6,039 nt of DNA from Escherichia phage NC35, in sequence record NC_007820.1. The stretch is one strand, 5' to 3'. Under the pieces are notes generated by a model. That model did no database searches. It worked only from the letters and a program-made list of their open reading frames with translations, and was not told the origin of the DNA. The position numbers and the translations under genes were made by a program. This document shows positions 65 through 6,039 of this stretch, piece by piece; position 1 is the first letter of the stretch; each line of letters begins with the position of its first letter.

Positions 65-433
65 ATGAAACCAGCTCATCGCCTTTATCATCCTGTTCTC
101 GGTTCTTGGCTGTTCAAGTGCCCTGTTTATATCCGTTATGAGCATCTTCATCATGGTCGTCTTATCAAGGTTCGTGCTGTTCGTGACCTTTCTCCGCGTC
201 AGCAGTTGATTGCTAACCCTAAAAATTGCTTTGACGTTGTCATTGCTGAGATTGATGTTACTCACCTTTCTGTTACTTTGTACGATTTTGAAGCTGAGGA
301 GTATGCTGAGTGTGATTCCGGTACTATGGAGCTTCTTCTTTCTCAGGTAAATTCTGGCGAGGTTATTCGCTCCTCCGAAGACCTGTTTGTTGATGTTGAC
401 GATATGGATTGGCTTTATGAAATTGCGGAGTAA
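65..433 (+). CDS. Hypothetical protein, 122 aa, with a basic N-terminal half and a strongly acidic C-terminal half; not part of the canonical phiX174 gene set.
   Basis: ATG at 65 preceded by AGGAG (53-57) with 7-nt spacing; stop TAA 431-433. Third codon positions are T-rich, as in the known phage genes here. Same strand as all other genes. No recognisable similarity to phiX174 proteins by eye. Confidence 0.5.
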   Translation: MKPAHRLYHPVLGSWLFKCPVYIRYEHLHHGRLIKVRAVRDLSPRQQLIANPKNCFDVVIAEIDVTHLSVTLYDFEAEEYAECDSGTMELLLSQVNSGEVIRSSEDLFVDVDDMDWLYEIAE

Positions 434-436
434 ATT

Positions 437-526
437 ATGGAAACTGTTATCGGAAAACTTATTGCTCTGGCTGTTGTTGCTCTTATGCTGTATGGAATTG
501 CCCGTTTGATTTGGAGGTTTCCGTGA
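437..526 (+). CDS. Small hydrophobic peptide, 29 aa (METVIGKLIALAVVALMLYGIARLIWRFP), possibly a single-pass membrane peptide.
   Basis: ATG at 437 with GGAG (427-430) 6 nt upstream, starting 3 nt after the ORF1 stop. Hydrophobic core flanked by K and R/W residues; T-rich third codon positions. Below the length cut-off of the supplied ORF track, so translated by hand. Confidence 0.35.
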   Translation: METVIGKLIALAVVALMLYGIARLIWRFP

Positions 527-699
527 AATATTTTAGTTTGGTAGATGAACATTATGCTTACTGCCCTGATACAAGGATTTTGCACATCACTCGTAGTCGT
601 GTTTCTGACCCTCGCTATGAGCGTCGCTTTCTTACTGATGAGGAGCATTTTGCACTTTTGGATTGGTTGAAAAATCGTCCAATATACATCAATTCTTGA
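523..699 (+). CDS. Hypothetical protein, 58 aa, GTG start overlapping the stop of the preceding small ORF (GTGA).
   Basis: GGAGG (513-517) lies 5 nt upstream of GTG 523; GTG 523-525 overlaps TGA 524-526 of ORF 437..526, suggesting translational coupling. Phage-like codon bias. The ORF track gives 511..699 from a TTG start with no Shine-Dalgarno; I prefer the GTG start. Confidence 0.35.
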   Translation: MKYFSLVDEHYAYCPDTRILHITRSRVSDPRYERRFLTDEEHFALLDWLKNRPIYINS

Positions 700-729
700 C
701 AGATAGTTTTACTACGAGGACTTTTTCGT

Positions 730-2214
730 ATGGCTACTGAAGTTTTCTCTGATGTTGTTAAGACCGTCTGGTCCCACGCTACGGCTAAGCATGCCCATCT
801 TCGTATGGCTGTTCAGGTTGATAACCGCAGTCGCCTTCTTTCTGACCTTGTTTATCAGTTGGAAAAACGCCTTTCTGAAGAGACTCATTTAGATGATGAG
901 ACTCTTGCTGTTTATGAATCTCAGACCGCTCTTCTGGAAGACCATATGGCTCTGGTTCGGAAGTGTGCTGCCCAACTTGATAATAGTAACACTATAGACC
1001 ACCGTACCCCTTTGGATGCCGAATGTGTTTTCCTGTTTGAAATGATTTGCCCAGGTGTTCGCTACGGTAAAACGTTGAATTCTCTTTGGTCTAAGTATGT
1101 TGCTCAATGGCCTGAGAAGTTAATTCGTCAAGAGTTAGACATGGTTAAGCCTTTATCCTTTAAGGATGAGGTTGCTAAGTACATGGAGAAGATGCAGGAA
1201 AAAACACGTAAAAATCGCATGACTCAAAAAGTAATTAATGATATGCGTATTGCTCACCAAAAGGGCTGGTTTTTCGTATTTGATACGTTGACACTTGCTG
1301 ATGACCGTTTGCAGGCATTTAATGAAAACCCCAATGCTCTTCGTGATTATTTCAGGACTGTTGGTCGAGCTGTTCTGCGCGCTGAAGGTCGTTCGGTTAA
1401 GGATTCCTACAACGACTGCTATCGCTATCTTTGTGTGCCGGAGTTTGGAGGTCAGCACGGTCGTCTTCATTGGCACGTTGTGCATATGGTGCGGACTCTT
1501 CCTTTGGGAAGTCACGACCCTAATTTCGGTCGCAAGGTACGTAATTATCGCCAGATTAACTCGTTCCGTGGCATGTGGCCTTATGGCTTCACGCAACCGA
1601 TAGCTGTACGCTATCAACATGATGCTTATTCTCGCAAAGGTTGGTTGTGGCCTGTTGACAAATCAGGTAAAGCAATGCAGAGTAAGCCCTATCAGGCGGT
1701 CGCATGGTATGTGACCAAGTATGTAGCCAAGCAATCTGACCAGCGTCAGAAAGCTATTACTGAGAGACAAAAAAAATGCAAGAATCCACTTATGGCAATC
1801 TGTCTGAAAAAGGAATTCAGAGTTCGCAGCAGCCGGAAGCTCGGAATGGAGTTACCTTCGATGGCGCATCTCAGCAACAAAGTGCTTCTGGAACTGAGCC
1901 GAATCAGCTTCGATTCCAGTCCTCTGTATCAGATAGTGAAAGAGAACGCCAAAAAGCAATTGACCTTGAACATCGGCGCACTGCCTTTGCACGTCATTTT
2001 GGATGTGCGCCCGGAAGTGAGAAGTATGTTGAAAAATATCCGTCGTTTGATGAAAAAGACACCCGAGTTCAATTGGCAGAGTTCTATCGCTTCAATGACG
2101 GTCACCTTAAAAAATGGGGATATTTCTGATGAAGCACGTCAATACATTATTGATGCAGGAATTACGCCTTTTGATTTGCGAGCTAAAGCGACTCAAACTT
2201 TCGGCGGTAAGTGA
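730..2214 (+). CDS. A: Replication initiation protein A (rolling-circle HUH endonuclease), 494 aa.
   Basis: Clear similarity to phiX174 protein A across the conserved core (FVFDTLTLADDRL, NPNALRDYFR, GRLHWHVVH HUH-type motif, YVTKYVAK two-tyrosine active-site motif, C-terminal DISDE...AGIT...GGK). GAGGA (716-720) precedes ATG 730. An in-frame stop at 697-699 rules out a longer N-terminus. Confidence 0.95.
   Translation: MATEVFSDVVKTVWSHATAKHAHLRMAVQVDNRSRLLSDLVYQLEKRLSEETHLDDETLAVYESQTALLEDHMALVRKCAAQLDNSNTIDHRTPLDAECVFLFEMICPGVRYGKTLNSLWSKYVAQWPEKLIRQELDMVKPLSFKDEVAKYMEKMQEKTRKNRMTQKVINDMRIAHQKGWFFVFDTLTLADDRLQAFNENPNALRDYFRTVGRAVLRAEGRSVKDSYNDCYRYLCVPEFGGQHGRLHWHVVHMVRTLPLGSHDPNFGRKVRNYRQINSFRGMWPYGFTQPIAVRYQHDAYSRKGWLWPVDKSGKAMQSKPYQAVAWYVTKYVAKQSDQRQKAITERQKKCKNPLMAICLKKEFRVRSSRKLGMELPSMAHLSNKVLLELSRISFDSSPLYQIVKENAKKQLTLNIGALPLHVILDVRPEVRSMLKNIRRLMKKTPEFNWQSSIASMTVTLKNGDISDEARQYIIDAGITPFDLRAKATQTFGGK
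973..1002 (+). other. Viral (+) strand origin of rolling-circle replication, a 30-nt conserved element inside gene A; predicted nick between G979 and A980.
   Basis: CAACTTGATAATAGTAACACTATAGACCAC matches the phiX174 origin 30-mer (CAACTTG/ATATTAATAACACTATAGACCAC, recalled from memory) at 27 of 30 positions, in the equivalent place within A (encoding ...LDNSNTIDHR...). Confidence 0.85.
1219..2214 (+). CDS. A*: A* protein, an in-frame internal restart of gene A (332 aa), inferred by homology to phiX174.
   Basis: Internal ATG at 1219 corresponds to the phiX174 A* initiator position just upstream of the conserved HADGW/HQKGW segment. No strong Shine-Dalgarno seen; call rests on synteny only. Confidence 0.45.
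   Translation: MTQKVINDMRIAHQKGWFFVFDTLTLADDRLQAFNENPNALRDYFRTVGRAVLRAEGRSVKDSYNDCYRYLCVPEFGGQHGRLHWHVVHMVRTLPLGSHDPNFGRKVRNYRQINSFRGMWPYGFTQPIAVRYQHDAYSRKGWLWPVDKSGKAMQSKPYQAVAWYVTKYVAKQSDQRQKAITERQKKCKNPLMAICLKKEFRVRSSRKLGMELPSMAHLSNKVLLELSRISFDSSPLYQIVKENAKKQLTLNIGALPLHVILDVRPEVRSMLKNIRRLMKKTPEFNWQSSIASMTVTLKNGDISDEARQYIIDAGITPFDLRAKATQTFGGK
1776..2129 (+). CDS. B: Internal scaffolding protein B, 117 aa, encoded within gene A in a different frame.
   Basis: C-terminal similarity to phiX174 B (AEFYRF...GYF terminus), acidic and Gln-rich N-terminal half, nested in A as in phiX174. Confidence 0.9.
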   Translation: MQESTYGNLSEKGIQSSQQPEARNGVTFDGASQQQSASGTEPNQLRFQSSVSDSERERQKAIDLEHRRTAFARHFGCAPGSEKYVEKYPSFDEKDTRVQLAEFYRFNDGHLKKWGYF

Positions 2215-2447: not shown

Positions 2448-2490
2448 ACTGTTTCAAGGTTTCTTACCCATTAAATGTTAGGAGAATGTT

Positions 2491-2949
2491 ATGTCTAATC
2501 TTGTTGCTACTGATGTTAACTTTGCTACTTCTGTTGCTGCTCTGAAGATGCTTCAGGCTTCTGCTGTTCTGGATATTACCGAGGAGGATTTTGATTTCCT
2601 GACTGGTGATAAAATTTGGATTGCTACTGACCGCAACCGTGCGCGTCGCTGTGTTGAGGCTTGTGTCTATGGAACGCTGGACTTTGTGGGATACCCTCGC
2701 TTTCCTGCTCCTGTTGAGTTTATTGCTGCCGTCATTGCTTATTATGTTCATCCCGTCAACATTCAGACGGCCTGCCTCATCATGGAAGGCGCTGAGTTTA
2801 CGGAAAACATTGTTAATGGCGTCGAGCGTCCGGTTAAAGCCGCTGAGCTCTTCGCGTACACCTTGCGTGTTAAGGCCGGATTCAAAGAAACGGTTCTGAG
2901 CGCTGAAGAGAATGCTCGCCAGAAACTTCGTGCAAGTGGAGTAATGTAA
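2491..2949 (+). CDS. D: External scaffolding protein D, 152 aa.
   Basis: Near-identity to phiX174 D over most of its length (for example CVEACVYGTLDFVGYPRFPAPVEFIAAVIAYYVHPVNIQTACLIMEGAEFTEN). AGGAG (2480-2484) 6 nt upstream of the ATG. Confidence 0.96.
   Translation: MSNLVATDVNFATSVAALKMLQASAVLDITEEDFDFLTGDKIWIATDRNRARRCVEACVYGTLDFVGYPRFPAPVEFIAAVIAYYVHPVNIQTACLIMEGAEFTENIVNGVERPVKAAELFAYTLRVKAGFKETVLSAEENARQKLRASGVM
2669..2899 (+). CDS. E: Lysis protein E, 76 aa, encoded within D in the +1 frame.
   Basis: MERWTLWDTLAFLLLLSLLLPSLLIMFIPSTF matches the phiX174 E N-terminal transmembrane domain (MVRWTLWDTLAFLLLLSLLLPSLLIMFIPSTF). The start is taken at the Met aligning with phiX174 E, not the upstream ORF-track start at 2606. 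Confidence 0.8.
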   Translation: MERWTLWDTLAFLLLLSLLLPSLLIMFIPSTFRRPASSWKALSLRKTLLMASSVRLKPLSSSRTPCVLRPDSKKRF

Positions 2950-2950
2950 T

Positions 2951-3025
2951 ATGAAGAAAGCTCGTCGTTCTCCTTCTCGTAAGAAAGGTGCCCGTCTCTG
3001 GTATGTAGGCGGTTCTCAATTTTAA
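2951..3025 (+). CDS. J: DNA-binding (packaging) protein J, 24 aa (MKKARRSPSRKKGARLWYVGGSQF).
   Basis: Highly basic peptide whose C-terminus matches phiX174 J (KGARLWYVGG-QF). Starts 1 nt after the D stop (TAATATG). The short length is typical of alpha3-like or G4-like phages, not phiX174 (38 aa). Confidence 0.85.
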   Translation: MKKARRSPSRKKGARLWYVGGSQF

Positions 3026-3059: not shown

Positions 3060-4343
3060 ATGTCAAATGTACAAACTTCCGCTGAGCGTATCCCTCATGA
3101 CCTGTCTCATCTGGTTTTTGATGCAGGCAAAATTGGTCGTTTAAAAGTTGTTTCTTGGACTCCTGTTGTTGCAGGTGATTCTTTTGAGCTTGATATGATT
3201 GGCGCTATTCGCCTCTCCCCGCTTCGTCGTGGTCTTGCTGTTGACTCTCGCGTTGACTTGTTCACGTTTTATGTTCCTCATCGTCATGTATATGGTGAGC
3301 AGTGGATTGAGTTTATGAAGCAAGGTGTTGATGCTGCTCCTCTGGCTCCTGTTCAGTGCTCTCGTGGTTGGGATAGTGCGCAGTATCTCGCTACTATTCC
3401 GTCTAGTAACTTAAAGGTTCCTAAGTTCCTTCATCAAGGTTACCTGAACATTTATAATAACTATTTTAAAGCTCCGTGGATGGATGACTTGACTTATGCT
3501 AACCCGTCCAATATGAAAGGTGAAGACGTTCGTTTTGGTGTTCGTGCATGTAACTTGAAAACTATTTGGACCGCTCCGCTTCCTCCGGACACTGAAACCT
3601 CTCATTCTATGGAGACTGAGTCTAACTCCATTGACATTATGGGTTTGCAAGCCGCTTATGCTCAATTACATACTGAGCAGGAGCGTGATTACTTCATGAC
3701 TCGTTATCGTGATATTGTTAATGAATTTGGTGGTAGTACTTCTTATGATGCGGATAATCGTCCTTTGCTTGTTATGCATTCTGAGTTCTGGGCCTCAGGC
3801 TATGACGTCGACGGCACCGACCAAAGCTCTCTCGGTCAGTTCTCCGGTCGTGTCCAGCAGACGTTTAAGCATTCAGTACCGCGATTCTTCTGTCCTGAGC
3901 ATGGCACTATGTTCACACTCGTATTGGTCCGCTTCCCGCCGACTCATGAAATGGAGATGCATTACTTAGTTGGTAAAGAAGATTTGACTTATACTGATTT
4001 GGCTTGTGACCCGGCTTTGATGGCTAACTTGCCTCCGCGTGAGGTTAATATGTCTCAGTTCTTCCATTCTGGAAGTGCTAGTGCTAAGTTTAAAATTGCT
4101 GAAGGCCAGTGGTATCGCATGCAGCCTGACCGTGTTGCGCTGCCGTATAACTATCTTGATGGTTTTCCGTTCTATAGTGCGATTCCGTCTGATGATATTA
4201 AGCAGCGTGTTCTGGTTAATACTGATAACTACGATGAGGTTTTCCAGTCTATGCAGCTTGCTCACTGGAATATGCAGACCAAGTTCAACTGCACGATTTA
4301 TCGTAATATGCCGACTACTCGTGATTCTATTATGACCTCTTGA
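3060..4343 (+). CDS. F: Major capsid protein F, 427 aa.
   Basis: Extensive similarity to phiX174 F from MSN-QT-AER-PHDLSH through the C-terminal NLPTTRDSIMTS; same length as phiX174 F. AAGGA (3048-3052) upstream of the ATG. Confidence 0.97.
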   Translation: MSNVQTSAERIPHDLSHLVFDAGKIGRLKVVSWTPVVAGDSFELDMIGAIRLSPLRRGLAVDSRVDLFTFYVPHRHVYGEQWIEFMKQGVDAAPLAPVQCSRGWDSAQYLATIPSSNLKVPKFLHQGYLNIYNNYFKAPWMDDLTYANPSNMKGEDVRFGVRACNLKTIWTAPLPPDTETSHSMETESNSIDIMGLQAAYAQLHTEQERDYFMTRYRDIVNEFGGSTSYDADNRPLLVMHSEFWASGYDVDGTDQSSLGQFSGRVQQTFKHSVPRFFCPEHGTMFTLVLVRFPPTHEMEMHYLVGKEDLTYTDLACDPALMANLPPREVNMSQFFHSGSASAKFKIAEGQWYRMQPDRVALPYNYLDGFPFYSAIPSDDIKQRVLVNTDNYDEVFQSMQLAHWNMQTKFNCTIYRNMPTTRDSIMTS

Positions 4344-4380: not shown

Positions 4381-4926
4381 ATGTTTCAAGTTTATGTTTC
4401 TAAGCATGTTTCTCCGTTCACCTCTATGAATCGTGCTTTTGGTATTACTCCTTCTAGCAATCCGACTGTTGTTAACTCTGGTGAAATTCAGGCTGGTCGT
4501 TCTACTTTTCGTATTGCCTCTTCCATTGGTGCCGCTTCCAATGGTCAAGGTTTTGCGTTTGTTCAAATGATGGACCCTTATTCTCCTGATAATCAGCAGG
4601 TTTTTTCTGTTGCTGCTTCCCTGTCTTTTAGTGTTGATTCGAACTATGTTCCTTGCGTTATTCGTTTTGAGACTGCTAGCACGCAGCCGACTAATATCGA
4701 TGTTTCTACTGCTGACTTTATTCCGCTTGAGTCTTCTGCTCTCTCTGCTCGTGCTCTCAGTGTTCGTGATTGTGTTACCGTTGATGTTAAGCCTCGCATT
4801 GAAGGTAATAACGTTTTCGTTGGTGTGGTTTTCTGTTCTGCTGGAGCTAGTGCTGGTAATGTCACTGGTGCTGTTTCGATGGCTCAGGTTGACCATGAAG
4901 TTACAGCTTTGCAGCCTCTTAAATAA
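4381..4926 (+). CDS. G: Major spike protein G, 181 aa.
   Basis: N-terminus MFQ(V/T)(Y/F)(V/I)S(K/R)H and C-terminus ...TALQPLK match phiX174 G (MFQTFISRH...ICLQPLK), plus the central RFE(T/S) and DCVT(V/I)DV motifs. ATG 4381 with AAGGA (4368-4372) upstream; the ORF-track start at 4348 is a GTG inside the hairpin and is rejected. Confidence 0.95.
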   Translation: MFQVYVSKHVSPFTSMNRAFGITPSSNPTVVNSGEIQAGRSTFRIASSIGAASNGQGFAFVQMMDPYSPDNQQVFSVAASLSFSVDSNYVPCVIRFETASTQPTNIDVSTADFIPLESSALSARALSVRDCVTVDVKPRIEGNNVFVGVVFCSAGASAGNVTGAVSMAQVDHEVTALQPLK

Positions 4927-5061
4927 AAGGCCGCCGCACTCCCGGTTATATGCCTGCCCAGTGTAGGGCGGACCGAGCCGTACGGAGATACCCGATAAAC
5001 TAGGAACGTGGAAGGCGCAAGCCGCCTTCCATCCTGCTAAGCCTAAAGGAGACTTTCAGCT
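4927..5061 (+). other. Structured, GC-rich G-H intergenic region (135 nt) with at least two hairpins and an 8-bp palindrome; candidate complementary (-) strand origin or primase recognition site.
   Basis: Hairpins at about 4954-4971 (CTGCCC / GGGCGG, 6-nt loop) and 5009-5031 (GGAAGGCG / CGCCTTCC, 5-nt loop), a CCGTACGG palindrome at 4978-4985, and CTG at 5034-5036 just 3' of the second hairpin. G4-type phages place a DnaG-dependent origin in an untranslated hairpin-rich region. Confidence 0.4.
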
Positions 5062-6039
5062 ATGTTAGGTGCCGTTGTAGGTGGTATTGCTTCAGCCTTA
5101 GCCGGTGGAGCCGCCTCTAAGTTATTTGGTGGTAAGTCTGCCCCTCAAGCCGCTACAGAGTCCGCTGGCCTATCTAATGGTCAAGGTGTTATTGGTATGG
5201 ACCAAGATGCCGGTATTCAGTCGGCTATTCAGGGTTCAAATGTCCCAAATGGTCAGATTCCCGCCCCCACGCAGACTGGTGGTGTTATGTCTGATGCTAA
5301 AAACATGATTAAGAATGCTGGTAAGGATTTGCTTGATGGTGTCATGACTGCTGGTAGTGACCGAGTCAAACAAGCTTTGGTTGATGGATTGAGTGGTAAT
5401 AATGCAAAGAAACAAGGACAAGCAACCCGTGATTACTTGGCTGCAGCCTTCCCTGAACTCAATGCATGGGAGCGTGCTGGAGCTGGTGCTTCCGGCGCCG
5501 GCTTGGAATCTTCCAGCCAGGACCAACAGAAAGAATTGATGCGAATGCAGTTGGACAACCAGAAAGATATTGCGAAGATGCAGATGCAGAATAATTTGCA
5601 GATTGCAGGTATTCAGTCCGCTACTTCTCGTCAAAATACGAAGGATTCTGTTTATGCACAGAATGAGATGCTTCAGTACAATCAGCGTGAGTCGCAAGCG
5701 CGTGTTGAGTCCATCCTCGCCAACACTGACCTTACGGTTAAACAGGCCACCCATGAAATCATGAGAATGGCCCTTACTCGTGCTCAGGAGACTGGTCAAC
5801 ATTTAACTAACTCTCAGATTATGGCATTGGAGAAAAAGGTTTATGCAGAAATCGGAAAAATTCATCAAGATACTCAAAACTCTCGCTATGGTAGCTCTCA
5901 AGTTACTGCTGCGGCGAAAGATGTTACAAATATGATTTCTGATGCTGTTGGCGGTTTTGCCGACTGGGCTTCCCAGCAATGGAATTCCTTCTTTAAGGAT
6001 GGTAAGTCTAATGGTATTCCTCTTAATACCAGAAAATAA
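5062..6039 (+). CDS. H: DNA pilot (minor spike) protein H, 325 aa.
   Basis: Strong similarity to phiX174 H: N-terminal glycine-rich hydrophobic segment (GGIASALAGGA-SKLFGG), central TRDYLAAAFPELNAWERAGA, and AGIQSATSRQNTKD-VYAQNEML. AAGGAG (5046-5051) upstream; stop TAA at 6037-6039 is the window end. Confidence 0.96.
   Translation: MLGAVVGGIASALAGGAASKLFGGKSAPQAATESAGLSNGQGVIGMDQDAGIQSAIQGSNVPNGQIPAPTQTGGVMSDAKNMIKNAGKDLLDGVMTAGSDRVKQALVDGLSGNNAKKQGQATRDYLAAAFPELNAWERAGAGASGAGLESSSQDQQKELMRMQLDNQKDIAKMQMQNNLQIAGIQSATSRQNTKDSVYAQNEMLQYNQRESQARVESILANTDLTVKQATHEIMRMALTRAQETGQHLTNSQIMALEKKVYAEIGKIHQDTQNSRYGSSQVTAAAKDVTNMISDAVGGFADWASQQWNSFFKDGKSNGIPLNTRK

What the first reader, a model, noticed from the sequence alone, without database searches (positions are those of the whole stretch)
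2669..2899. Lysis protein E has a conserved transmembrane domain but a shortened C-terminal region
The first 32 residues are almost identical to phiX174 E, the region I recall as sufficient for MraY inhibition. The protein ends after 76 residues, against 91 in phiX174, with a divergent basic tail (RPDSKKRF). Because E is embedded in D, the changes in E are constrained by D, which is nearly invariant here. This is a compact example of overlapping-gene constraint.
Basis: partly seen in the sequence, partly recalled or inferred. Interest (0 to 1): 0.25.

Follow-up and report, generated by a model that had tools for sequence, protein, structure and literature searches.

The report
Ordinary alpha3-type phage lysis gene E
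This is the normal lysis gene E of an alpha3-like coliphage, nested out of frame inside scaffolding gene D; its 76-residue length is the standard for that phage group and its sequence is identical to genes already in GenBank, so it is ordinary.

Summary
ATG 2669 to TGA 2897-2899 encodes a 76-aa protein in the +1 frame of gene D (2491-2949). Its residues 1-32 match phiX174 E at 31 of 32 positions.

It is not a peculiarity of this genome. The window is an Alphatrevirus (alpha3/WA13-like) genome, at best 94% identical to phage NC3. The 228 coding bases of E are 100% identical to the annotated gpE of NC3 and WA45. All 18 distinct alpha3-like genomes examined have an E of 75 or 76 aa; phiX174 has 91 and G4 has 96.

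The ATG and its GAGG ribosome-binding site are conserved in every genome. Four relatives carry an in-frame TAG five codons upstream, which rules out a start at GTG 2606.

A 76-aa E from ID21 (65/76 identical) has a solved structure in the MraY-E-SlyD complex (PDB 8G01).

The overlap constraint is real and runs both ways:
- The E transmembrane segment suppresses synonymous change in D: 9/32 variable third positions against 34/38 outside the overlap, p=1e-7.
- The E cytoplasmic domain absorbs D's synonymous changes.
- The divergent tail lies where D itself changes, so D is not "nearly invariant" there.

The gene is already known and of low interest.

The parts
2669..2899 (+). Gene E (lysis protein), 76 codons plus TGA, in the +1 frame relative to D
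   Evidence: Translation. Identical to the annotated gpE of NC3 (AAZ49044.1) and WA45 (YP_512424.1). Pfam PF04517, PHROG 1472.
2656..2659 (+). GAGG Shine-Dalgarno element, 9 nt upstream of the E start codon ATG
   Evidence: Read from the sequence. GAGG and ATG are present at the same spacing in all 30 Bullavirinae loci scored, including phiX174 and G4.
2669..2764 (+). E residues 1-32: N-terminal transmembrane domain, with hydrophobic core LAFLLLLSLLLPSLLIMFI at residues 10-28 and Pro21
   Evidence: 31/32 identical to phiX174. The best 19-residue Kyte-Doolittle window is 10-28, mean 2.79. Of E residues 10-29, all but 19 and 26 are invariant in 19 genomes; those two differ only in G4. D third-position variability is suppressed here.
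2765..2896 (+). E residues 33-76: basic cytoplasmic domain, net charge +11, prolines at 35, 58, 65 and 70
   Evidence: Charge and proline positions. Pfam PF04517 matches residues 35-74. This domain absorbs most D-synonymous substitutions.
2897..2899 (+). E stop codon TGA, formed across D codons Leu136 (CTG) and Ser137 (AGC)
   Evidence: The stop sits at codon 77 in all WA13-like genomes scored (TGA, or TAA in ID21 and L033) and at codon 76 (TAA) in all alpha3-like ones.
2491..2949 (+). Gene D (external scaffolding protein, 152 aa), the host frame that contains E
   Evidence: ORF list. Pfam PF02925 gpD, 262 bits. 99-100% identical to D of NC3, WA13 and ID32.
2606..2608 (+). GTG at the head of the mechanical 97-aa ORF; rejected as the E start
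   Evidence: ID21, NC28, phiK and Lilleven have an in-frame TAG 5 codons upstream of the ATG, so nothing upstream of that can be the conserved start. phiX174 has no start codon at the equivalent of 2606. No GGAG or GAGG lies upstream of 2606.
2900..2944 (+). Fourteen further open codons in the E frame after the TGA, ending at TAA 2942-2944, the position of the phiX174 E stop (codon 92)
   Evidence: The D sequence here allows a +1-frame stop at only two codon junctions (L146/R147 and V151/M152). The open frame is therefore not evidence of read-through (inference).

Best explanation
Window 2669-2899 is gene E of an alpha3-like (Alphatrevirus, WA13-like) coliphage. It is translated from its own GAGG-N9-ATG site inside the D mRNA, in the +1 frame.

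The product is a 76-residue single-pass inner-membrane protein. Its N-terminal transmembrane helix (residues about 10-29, kinked at Pro21) binds the host lipid I synthase MraY and blocks its active site, so peptidoglycan precursor synthesis stops and the growing cell lyses. The basic cytoplasmic domain (residues 33-76, net charge +11) is held by the host FKBP-type chaperone SlyD, which stabilises E.

The 75-76 aa length is the clade-typical form, not a truncation peculiar to this genome.

Shown here: identity of the gene, its start, its stop, its conservation and the two-way overlap constraint with D. Inferred from relatives and the literature: MraY inhibition and SlyD dependence.
For: - The genome is an Alphatrevirus, at best 94% identical to NC3, with the full gene order A-B-K-C-D-E-J-F-G-H.
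- The E coding sequence has 0 differences in 228 nt from NC3 and WA45, both annotated 'gpE, cell lysis protein'.
- Family matches: PF04517 at 70.9 bits, PHROG 1472 at 2.7e-40.
- PDB 8G01 chain B is ID21 gpE, 76 aa plus tag, and aligns over residues 2-76 at E=5.7e-34. 8G01 is the E. coli MraY-protein E-SlyD complex made with E from ID21 (PMC10914600). In that complex E occupies the MraY active site (PMC12506998).
- The N-terminal 29 residues carry MraY inhibition and Pro21 is critical (review PMC5039524). The window is 31/32 identical to phiX174 there and keeps Pro21.
- The start ATG and GAGG are conserved in all loci, and four relatives have a TAG 5 codons upstream.
- The stop is conserved at codon 76 or 77 in 18/18 distinct alpha3-like genomes, including two metagenome and two IMG/VR contigs.
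- Selection on the E frame: D third positions (which are E second positions) vary at 9/32 sites under the transmembrane domain against 34/38 in non-overlapped D22-59 (Fisher p=1.2e-7). Within Alphatrevirus the figures are 8/32 against 24/38, p=0.002.
- An alpha3 E gene is used as a lysis gene in the laboratory (PMC11126076).
Against: No experiment was done on this particular sequence. MraY inhibition and SlyD dependence are transferred from phiX174 E and ID21 E. The primary papers (Orta et al. 2023, Tanaka & Clemons 2012, Zheng et al. 2008) were not held in the library, so their content is cited through secondary papers. The reduced synonymous variation in D under the E transmembrane segment could in part reflect another nucleotide-level constraint, such as mRNA or ssDNA structure, rather than E alone. 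One report claims that lysis by E proteins of other clades persists in a slyD knockout (PMC11126076), so SlyD dependence of this E is not certain.
Confidence: 0.96

Rival explanations
1. E initiates upstream at GTG 2606 (or another upstream GTG/TTG), giving a 97-aa protein with a 21-residue N-terminal extension.
For: The mechanical ORF is open from 2606, and several in-frame GTG/TTG codons lie between 2606 and 2669.
Against: ID21, NC28, phiK and Lilleven have an in-frame TAG 5 codons upstream of the ATG. phiX174 has no start codon at the 2606 equivalent. The GAGG-N9-ATG arrangement is conserved in all loci. No Shine-Dalgarno sequence precedes 2606. The ID21 E chain in PDB 8G01 starts at the ATG-encoded Met. 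The upstream openness follows from D's conserved sequence.
Confidence: 0.02
2. The 76-aa ORF is a decaying or attenuated remnant of a 91-aa E: the stop is a recent nonsense mutation and the protein is impaired.
For: The E frame stays open for 14 codons after the TGA and ends exactly where phiX174 E ends.
Against: The stop is present in all 18 alpha3-like genomes, which differ by up to about 15% in DNA. It persists through three different Leu136 codons in D (CTG, TTG, TTA), all of which preserve it, and through a one-codon shift between subclades. The cytoplasmic domain keeps net charge +11, the same as phiX174. The 76-aa ID21 E forms the inhibitory MraY-SlyD complex. These phages are viable plaque-formers isolated on E. 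coli.
Confidence: 0.02
3. Low-level read-through of the TGA at 2897 yields a minor 91-aa isoform with a function of its own.
For: TGA is the leakiest stop codon in E. coli (general knowledge). Fourteen open codons follow it, up to TAA 2942-2944.
Against: The alpha3 subgroup, ID21 and L033 use TAA, not TGA. The downstream openness is explained by D's sequence, which permits +1-frame stops at only two codon junctions. The post-stop peptide shows no conservation beyond what D imposes.
Confidence: 0.02

Closest known systems
gpE of coliphages NC3 (AAZ49044.1) and WA45 (YP_512424.1), Alphatrevirus
   Same: Identical 76-aa protein and identical 228 coding bases. Same position in D (offset 178 nt) and the same TGA stop.
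   Different: Nothing within E. The surrounding genomes are only 92-94% identical, with a mosaic pattern.
gpE of coliphage ID21 (YP_512384.1; PDB 8G01 chain B, MraY-E-SlyD 'YES' complex)
   Same: Same length (76 aa), same start and stop positions, 65/76 identical, and same P21, P29, P35, P58, P65 and P70.
   Different: Eleven substitutions, six of them in residues 1-32 (E2G, R3H, W7S, D8G, T9I, S30L). The stop is TAA instead of TGA, and an in-frame TAG lies 5 codons upstream of the ATG.
phiX174 lysis protein E (NP_040709.1; PDB 8G02)
   Same: Same nested +1-frame position in D, same GAGG-ATG start, 31/32 identity in the transmembrane domain and 27/33 over residues 33-65. The cytoplasmic net charge is +11 in both.
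   Different: 91 aa against 76 aa. Residues 66-76 are only 2/11 identical. In phiX174 D codons 136-137 are Thr-Asp (ACT GAC), so the E frame reads through to codon 92.
alpha3 / St-1 / phiK lysis protein E (75 aa)
   Same: Same genus and the same short architecture, with a tail of the form ...DSKK.
   Different: One residue shorter. The stop is TAA, formed one codon earlier across D Val135 (GTA) and the next codon (Met/Ile136, ATG/ATT). There are 12-17 substitutions.
G4-like lysis protein E (91-103 aa)
   Same: Same nested position and the same conserved core LAFLLLLSL(L/F)LPSLLI.
   Different: Longer, running past the D stop in G4. The cytoplasmic domain is much more divergent (26/44 differences) and less basic at +6.

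Membership tests
Microvirus (Bullavirinae) lysis protein E, Pfam PF04517 / PHROG 1472 | Sequence match to the family profile above the curated threshold | tested here: met
   PF04517 scores 70.9 bits (cut-off 25) over residues 35-74. PHROG 1472 gives E=2.7e-40 over residues 1-75.
Microvirus (Bullavirinae) lysis protein E, Pfam PF04517 / PHROG 1472 | Gene nested in the +1 frame inside external scaffolding gene D, starting at D codon 60 | tested here: met
   The E start is 178 nt after the D start, as in phiX174, G4 and all WA13-like phages. D is confirmed by PF02925 at 262 bits.
Microvirus (Bullavirinae) lysis protein E, Pfam PF04517 / PHROG 1472 | Single N-terminal transmembrane helix with the essential Pro21 | tested here: met
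   The hydrophobic core spans residues 10-28 (mean Kyte-Doolittle 2.79) and Pro21 is present. Identity to phiX174 is 31/32. The role of Pro21 is taken from review PMC5039524.
Microvirus (Bullavirinae) lysis protein E, Pfam PF04517 / PHROG 1472 | Basic, proline-containing cytoplasmic C-terminal domain | tested here: met
   Residues 33-76 have net charge +11 (12 Lys/Arg), with prolines at 35, 58, 65 and 70.
Microvirus (Bullavirinae) lysis protein E, Pfam PF04517 / PHROG 1472 | Own ribosome-binding site and ATG, conserved across the subfamily | tested here: met
   GAGG 2656-2659 lies 9 nt before ATG 2669 and is conserved in all loci scored.
Microvirus (Bullavirinae) lysis protein E, Pfam PF04517 / PHROG 1472 | Inhibits MraY and causes lysis; stabilised by host SlyD | not testable with these tools
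   Inferred from ID21 E (65/76 identical) in the MraY-E-SlyD structure 8G01 and from phiX174 genetics.
Alphatrevirus-type short E (75-76 aa) | Stop at E codon 76 or 77, about 50 nt before the end of D | tested here: met
   The stop is at codon 77 in the window. All 18 distinct alpha3-like genomes have it at codon 76 or 77.

The most novel reading that the evidence does not exclude
The short E of alpha3-like phages may be held at 75-76 residues by selection, not merely inherited. The stop is kept through three different D Leu136 codons (CTG, TTG, TTA), never CTT or CTC, which would extend E to 91 aa. It also sits one codon earlier, in a different D codon pair, in the alpha3 subgroup. The shorter cytoplasmic domain has the same +11 net charge as the 59-residue domain of phiX174. 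On this reading the charge of the tail, and hence its SlyD- or membrane-proximal behaviour and lysis timing, is the selected property.
Probability: 0.3. Interest if true: 0.2.

Novelty: already known. Interest (0 to 1): 0.06.

Why it matters
It matters little. The gene, its exact sequence, its length class and the structure of a close homologue bound to its target are all already public. The D/E overlap has been a textbook case since 1976-1979 (Barrell et al.; Fiddes & Godson; reviewed in PMC8227390). The value of this check is negative: the 'shortened C-terminus' is the alpha3-clade norm and needs no follow-up. The frame analysis does give a clean quantitative picture of the asymmetric, two-way constraint. 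The E transmembrane domain freezes D's synonymous sites, and the E cytoplasmic domain absorbs them.

Tried and rejected
- A start at GTG 2606 was rejected on comparative evidence.
- The pseudogene or recent-truncation reading was rejected because the stop is conserved in 18/18 clade genomes.
- TGA read-through was considered unlikely. Several clade members use TAA, and the downstream open frame is explained by D's sequence.
- I tried to read the primary papers (Orta et al. 2023, PMC12747129 / PMID 37440661; Tanaka & Clemons 2012, PMC3429702 / PMID 22742425; Zheng et al. 2008, PMC2581948). None is held, so I could not state which ID21 E residues are resolved or contact SlyD.
- Whether the short or the long E is ancestral cannot be decided. 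No outgroup has an E gene, and the three Bullavirinae clades give no polarity.
- MG945254 has a frameshifted or permuted D N-terminus at its record origin (an UNVERIFIED record). It was excluded from the D22-59 statistics.
- I did not run the large protein-database searches or a structure prediction. Exact identity to annotated genes and a solved homologue made them unnecessary.

Full report
**What is there.** The window is essentially a whole microvirus genome. The ORF list shows the gene order A (730-2214), B, K, C, D (2491-2949), J, F (3060-4343), G and H (5062-6039). Megablast against 50,697 phage records finds 24 records covering at least 80% of the window. All but one (an unclassified Microviridae record from dog faeces) are named alpha3-like coliphages, and those whose records were fetched are classified in the genus Alphatrevirus. 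The best is NC3 at 94.0% identity, followed by ID32, WA13, WA45, ID21, NC29, ID62 and NC28. alpha3, St-1 and phiK are at 84-86%. phiX174-like and G4-like phages match only across D-J-F, at about 75%.

**The observation.** Translating 2669-2899 gives a 76-residue protein followed by TGA at 2897-2899. It lies in the +1 frame of D, starting 178 nt after the D start, exactly as in phiX174, G4 and the WA13-like phages.
- Identity to phiX174 E is 31/32 for residues 1-32 (only V2E differs), 27/33 for residues 33-65 and 2/11 for residues 66-76.
- Profile matches are decisive: Pfam PF04517 at 70.9 bits against a cut-off of 25, PHROG 1472 at E=2.7e-40, and PDB chains 8G01_B and 8G02_B at E=6e-34 and 4e-32.

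**Is it unusual?** No. I extracted the annotated D and E genes from 13 reference genomes.
- The window's E protein is identical to the annotated gpE of NC3 and WA45, and the 228 coding bases have zero differences from either.
- E is 76 aa in every WA13-like phage (NC3, WA45, WA13, ID32, NC29, ID21, ID62, NC28, MG945254).
- E is 75 aa in alpha3, St-1, phiK and Lilleven.
- E is 91 aa in phiX174 and an ID2-like contig, 96 aa in G4 and 103 aa in one G4-like contig.
- Two IMG/VR contigs (L022, L023) and two metagenome contigs found with a degenerate pattern specific for alpha3-type D (L032, L033) also give 75, 75, 75 and 76 aa.

That makes 18 of 18 distinct alpha3-like genomes with the short form. 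The 'shortened C-terminus' is therefore the genus norm.

**Start codon.** In all loci scored the ATG is preceded by GAGG at the same spacing; in the window this is GAGG 2656-2659, then 9 nt, then ATG 2669. In ID21, NC28, phiK and Lilleven an in-frame TAG lies five codons upstream of the ATG, and phiX174 has no start codon at the position equivalent to 2606. The deposited ID21 E chain in 8G01 aligns from residue 2 onward with the ATG-initiated protein. The upstream start is rejected.

**Stop codon.** In the window, D codons Leu136 (CTG) and Ser137 (AGC) create the TGA in the E frame.
- Across WA13-like phages D136 is CTG, TTG or TTA. All three keep a stop (TGA or TAA), whereas CTT or CTC would open the frame.
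- In the alpha3 subgroup the stop is TAA one codon earlier, across Val135 (GTA) and the first base of codon 136 (Met ATG or Ile ATT).
- After the window's TGA the E frame stays open for 14 codons, to TAA 2942-2944. This is the position of the phiX174 E stop.
- The D sequence here permits +1-frame stops at only two codon junctions, so this openness needs no special explanation (inference).

**Which frame absorbs the substitutions.** E codon position 2 is D codon position 3, so D-synonymous third-position changes are nearly always non-synonymous in E.
- Within the WA13-like group (window against ID21, NC29 and ID62), 24 of 28 differences in the overlap are D-synonymous and E-non-synonymous. Only one changes D.
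- Across 19 non-redundant Bullavirinae, the variable D third positions number 34/38 in non-overlapped D22-59, 9/32 under E residues 1-32 and 39/44 under E residues 33-76. Fisher's test for the transmembrane domain against the non-overlapped region gives p=1.2e-7. Within Alphatrevirus the figures are 8/32 against 24/38, p=0.002.
- Of E residues 10-29, 18 are invariant; positions 19 and 26 each differ only in G4.

So the E transmembrane segment constrains D's silent sites about three-fold, while the E cytoplasmic domain is free to absorb them. This is the classical asymmetric pattern described for D/E by Fiddes & Godson and later authors (review PMC8227390). The T-rich D third position (38% T), which becomes the E second position and yields a Leu-rich protein (24% Leu), is also reproduced here.

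Against phiX174 there are 25 nucleotide differences in the overlap. Seventeen lie in the last 39 nt (E residues 64-76). There D itself changes at residues 123, 128 and 131-136 (GFKETVL against GNTDVLT), and only V108I changes elsewhere in the overlap. The divergent tail and the stop therefore come from substitutions that alter both proteins, not from silent changes in an invariant D. Despite being 15 residues shorter, the cytoplasmic domain has the same net charge (+11) as that of phiX174.

**Mechanism.** The following steps are established for relatives and inferred here.
- Protein E of phiX174 is a single-pass membrane protein whose N-terminal 29 or so residues carry MraY inhibition, with Pro21 critical (review PMC5039524).
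- SlyD is needed for E stability (Bernhardt et al. 2002, as cited in PMC4825663).
- The cryo-EM MraY-E-SlyD complex shows E occupying the MraY active site (PMC12506998). Entry 8G01 was made with E from ID21 (PMC10914600).
- ID21 E is 76 aa and 65/76 identical to the window's E. The short form is therefore sufficient for the full complex.
- The window keeps R3 and L19, the positions named as SlyD-bypass changes in phiX174 (L19F is coupled to D A79S; PMC4825663). I therefore expect SlyD dependence (inference).
- One paper reports lysis by E genes of several clades persisting in a slyD knockout of strain Nissle (PMC11126076), so that step is uncertain.

**Verdict.** This is a correctly identified, already known gene with a clade-typical length. 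Novelty is 'already known' and interest is low.

**Seen in passing.**
- A 29-nt deletion unique to the window removes the spacer and -10 hexamer of the strong promoter-like site upstream of gene A that relatives have.
- A conserved, mostly unannotated 122-codon ORF (65-433) in the so-called H-A intergenic region shows a clear coding signature.

Noticed in passing
window 695-730 (deletion junction between 703 and 704): The window has a unique 29-nt deletion relative to all 7 WA13-like relatives aligned. In NC3 the deleted stretch carries the spacer and -10 hexamer of an 11/12 sigma-70 match (TTGACA-18-TATATT, L001 697-726), about 30 nt upstream of the gene A ATG. In the window only TTGACA remains, and the scan finds no promoter-like site in 560-800. 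It may be a real loss or rearrangement of the gene A promoter, or a sequencing or assembly artefact.
   Followed up: partly
window 65-433 (+): A 122-codon ORF lies in the 'H-A intergenic region'. It is found only in alpha3-like phages (25 records). It is intact in all but St-1 and the old alpha3 record X60322; the resequenced alpha3 record DQ085810.2 has it intact. Nucleotide diversity by codon position is 0.073/0.022/0.301 for codons 1-62 and 0.219/0.177/0.329 for codons 63-122, a protein-coding signature. It is unannotated in the Rokyta records and is a 'hypothetical protein' in Lilleven. It has no Pfam or PHROG match. [quoted passage not shown]
   Followed up: partly
window 511-699 (+): A second ORF (62 aa) lies in the same region and ends at the TTGACA hexamer. 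Lilleven annotates hypothetical proteins at the corresponding place (5769-6031). It has no Pfam match.
   Followed up: no
whole window vs relatives: Identity to relatives is mosaic. It is 99% to NC3 at 1000-2000 and 2500-3000 but 86% at 500-1000 and 4500-5000. WA45 and ID32 are the closest in other segments. This suggests recombination among alpha3-like phages. No record in the phage collection is more than 94% identical overall.
   Followed up: no
window 2448-2490 (C-D intergenic region): This region is an indel hot spot. NC3 has about 30 extra bases and NC29 about 190 extra bases relative to the window, and ID62 lacks 16.
   Followed up: no
L027 (IMGVR_UViG_2534682327_000003), E frame codon 7: This is a phiX174-type contig with TAG at E codon 7 (MVRWTL*). 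It looks like the laboratory lysis-defective amber strain of phiX174 rather than an environmental phage.
   Followed up: no
E residues 3 and 19 across loci (window 2675-2677, 2723-2725): Natural variants reproduce the phiX174 SlyD-bypass substitutions. His3 occurs in WA13, ID21, G4 and L031. Phe19, coupled to D A79S, occurs in G4. The window has Arg3 and Leu19, like wild-type phiX174.
   Followed up: no
L014 (MG945254.1) record origin: This UNVERIFIED dog-faeces record starts inside gene D and gives a frameshifted D N-terminus when circularised. An assembly junction error is the likely cause.
   Followed up: no
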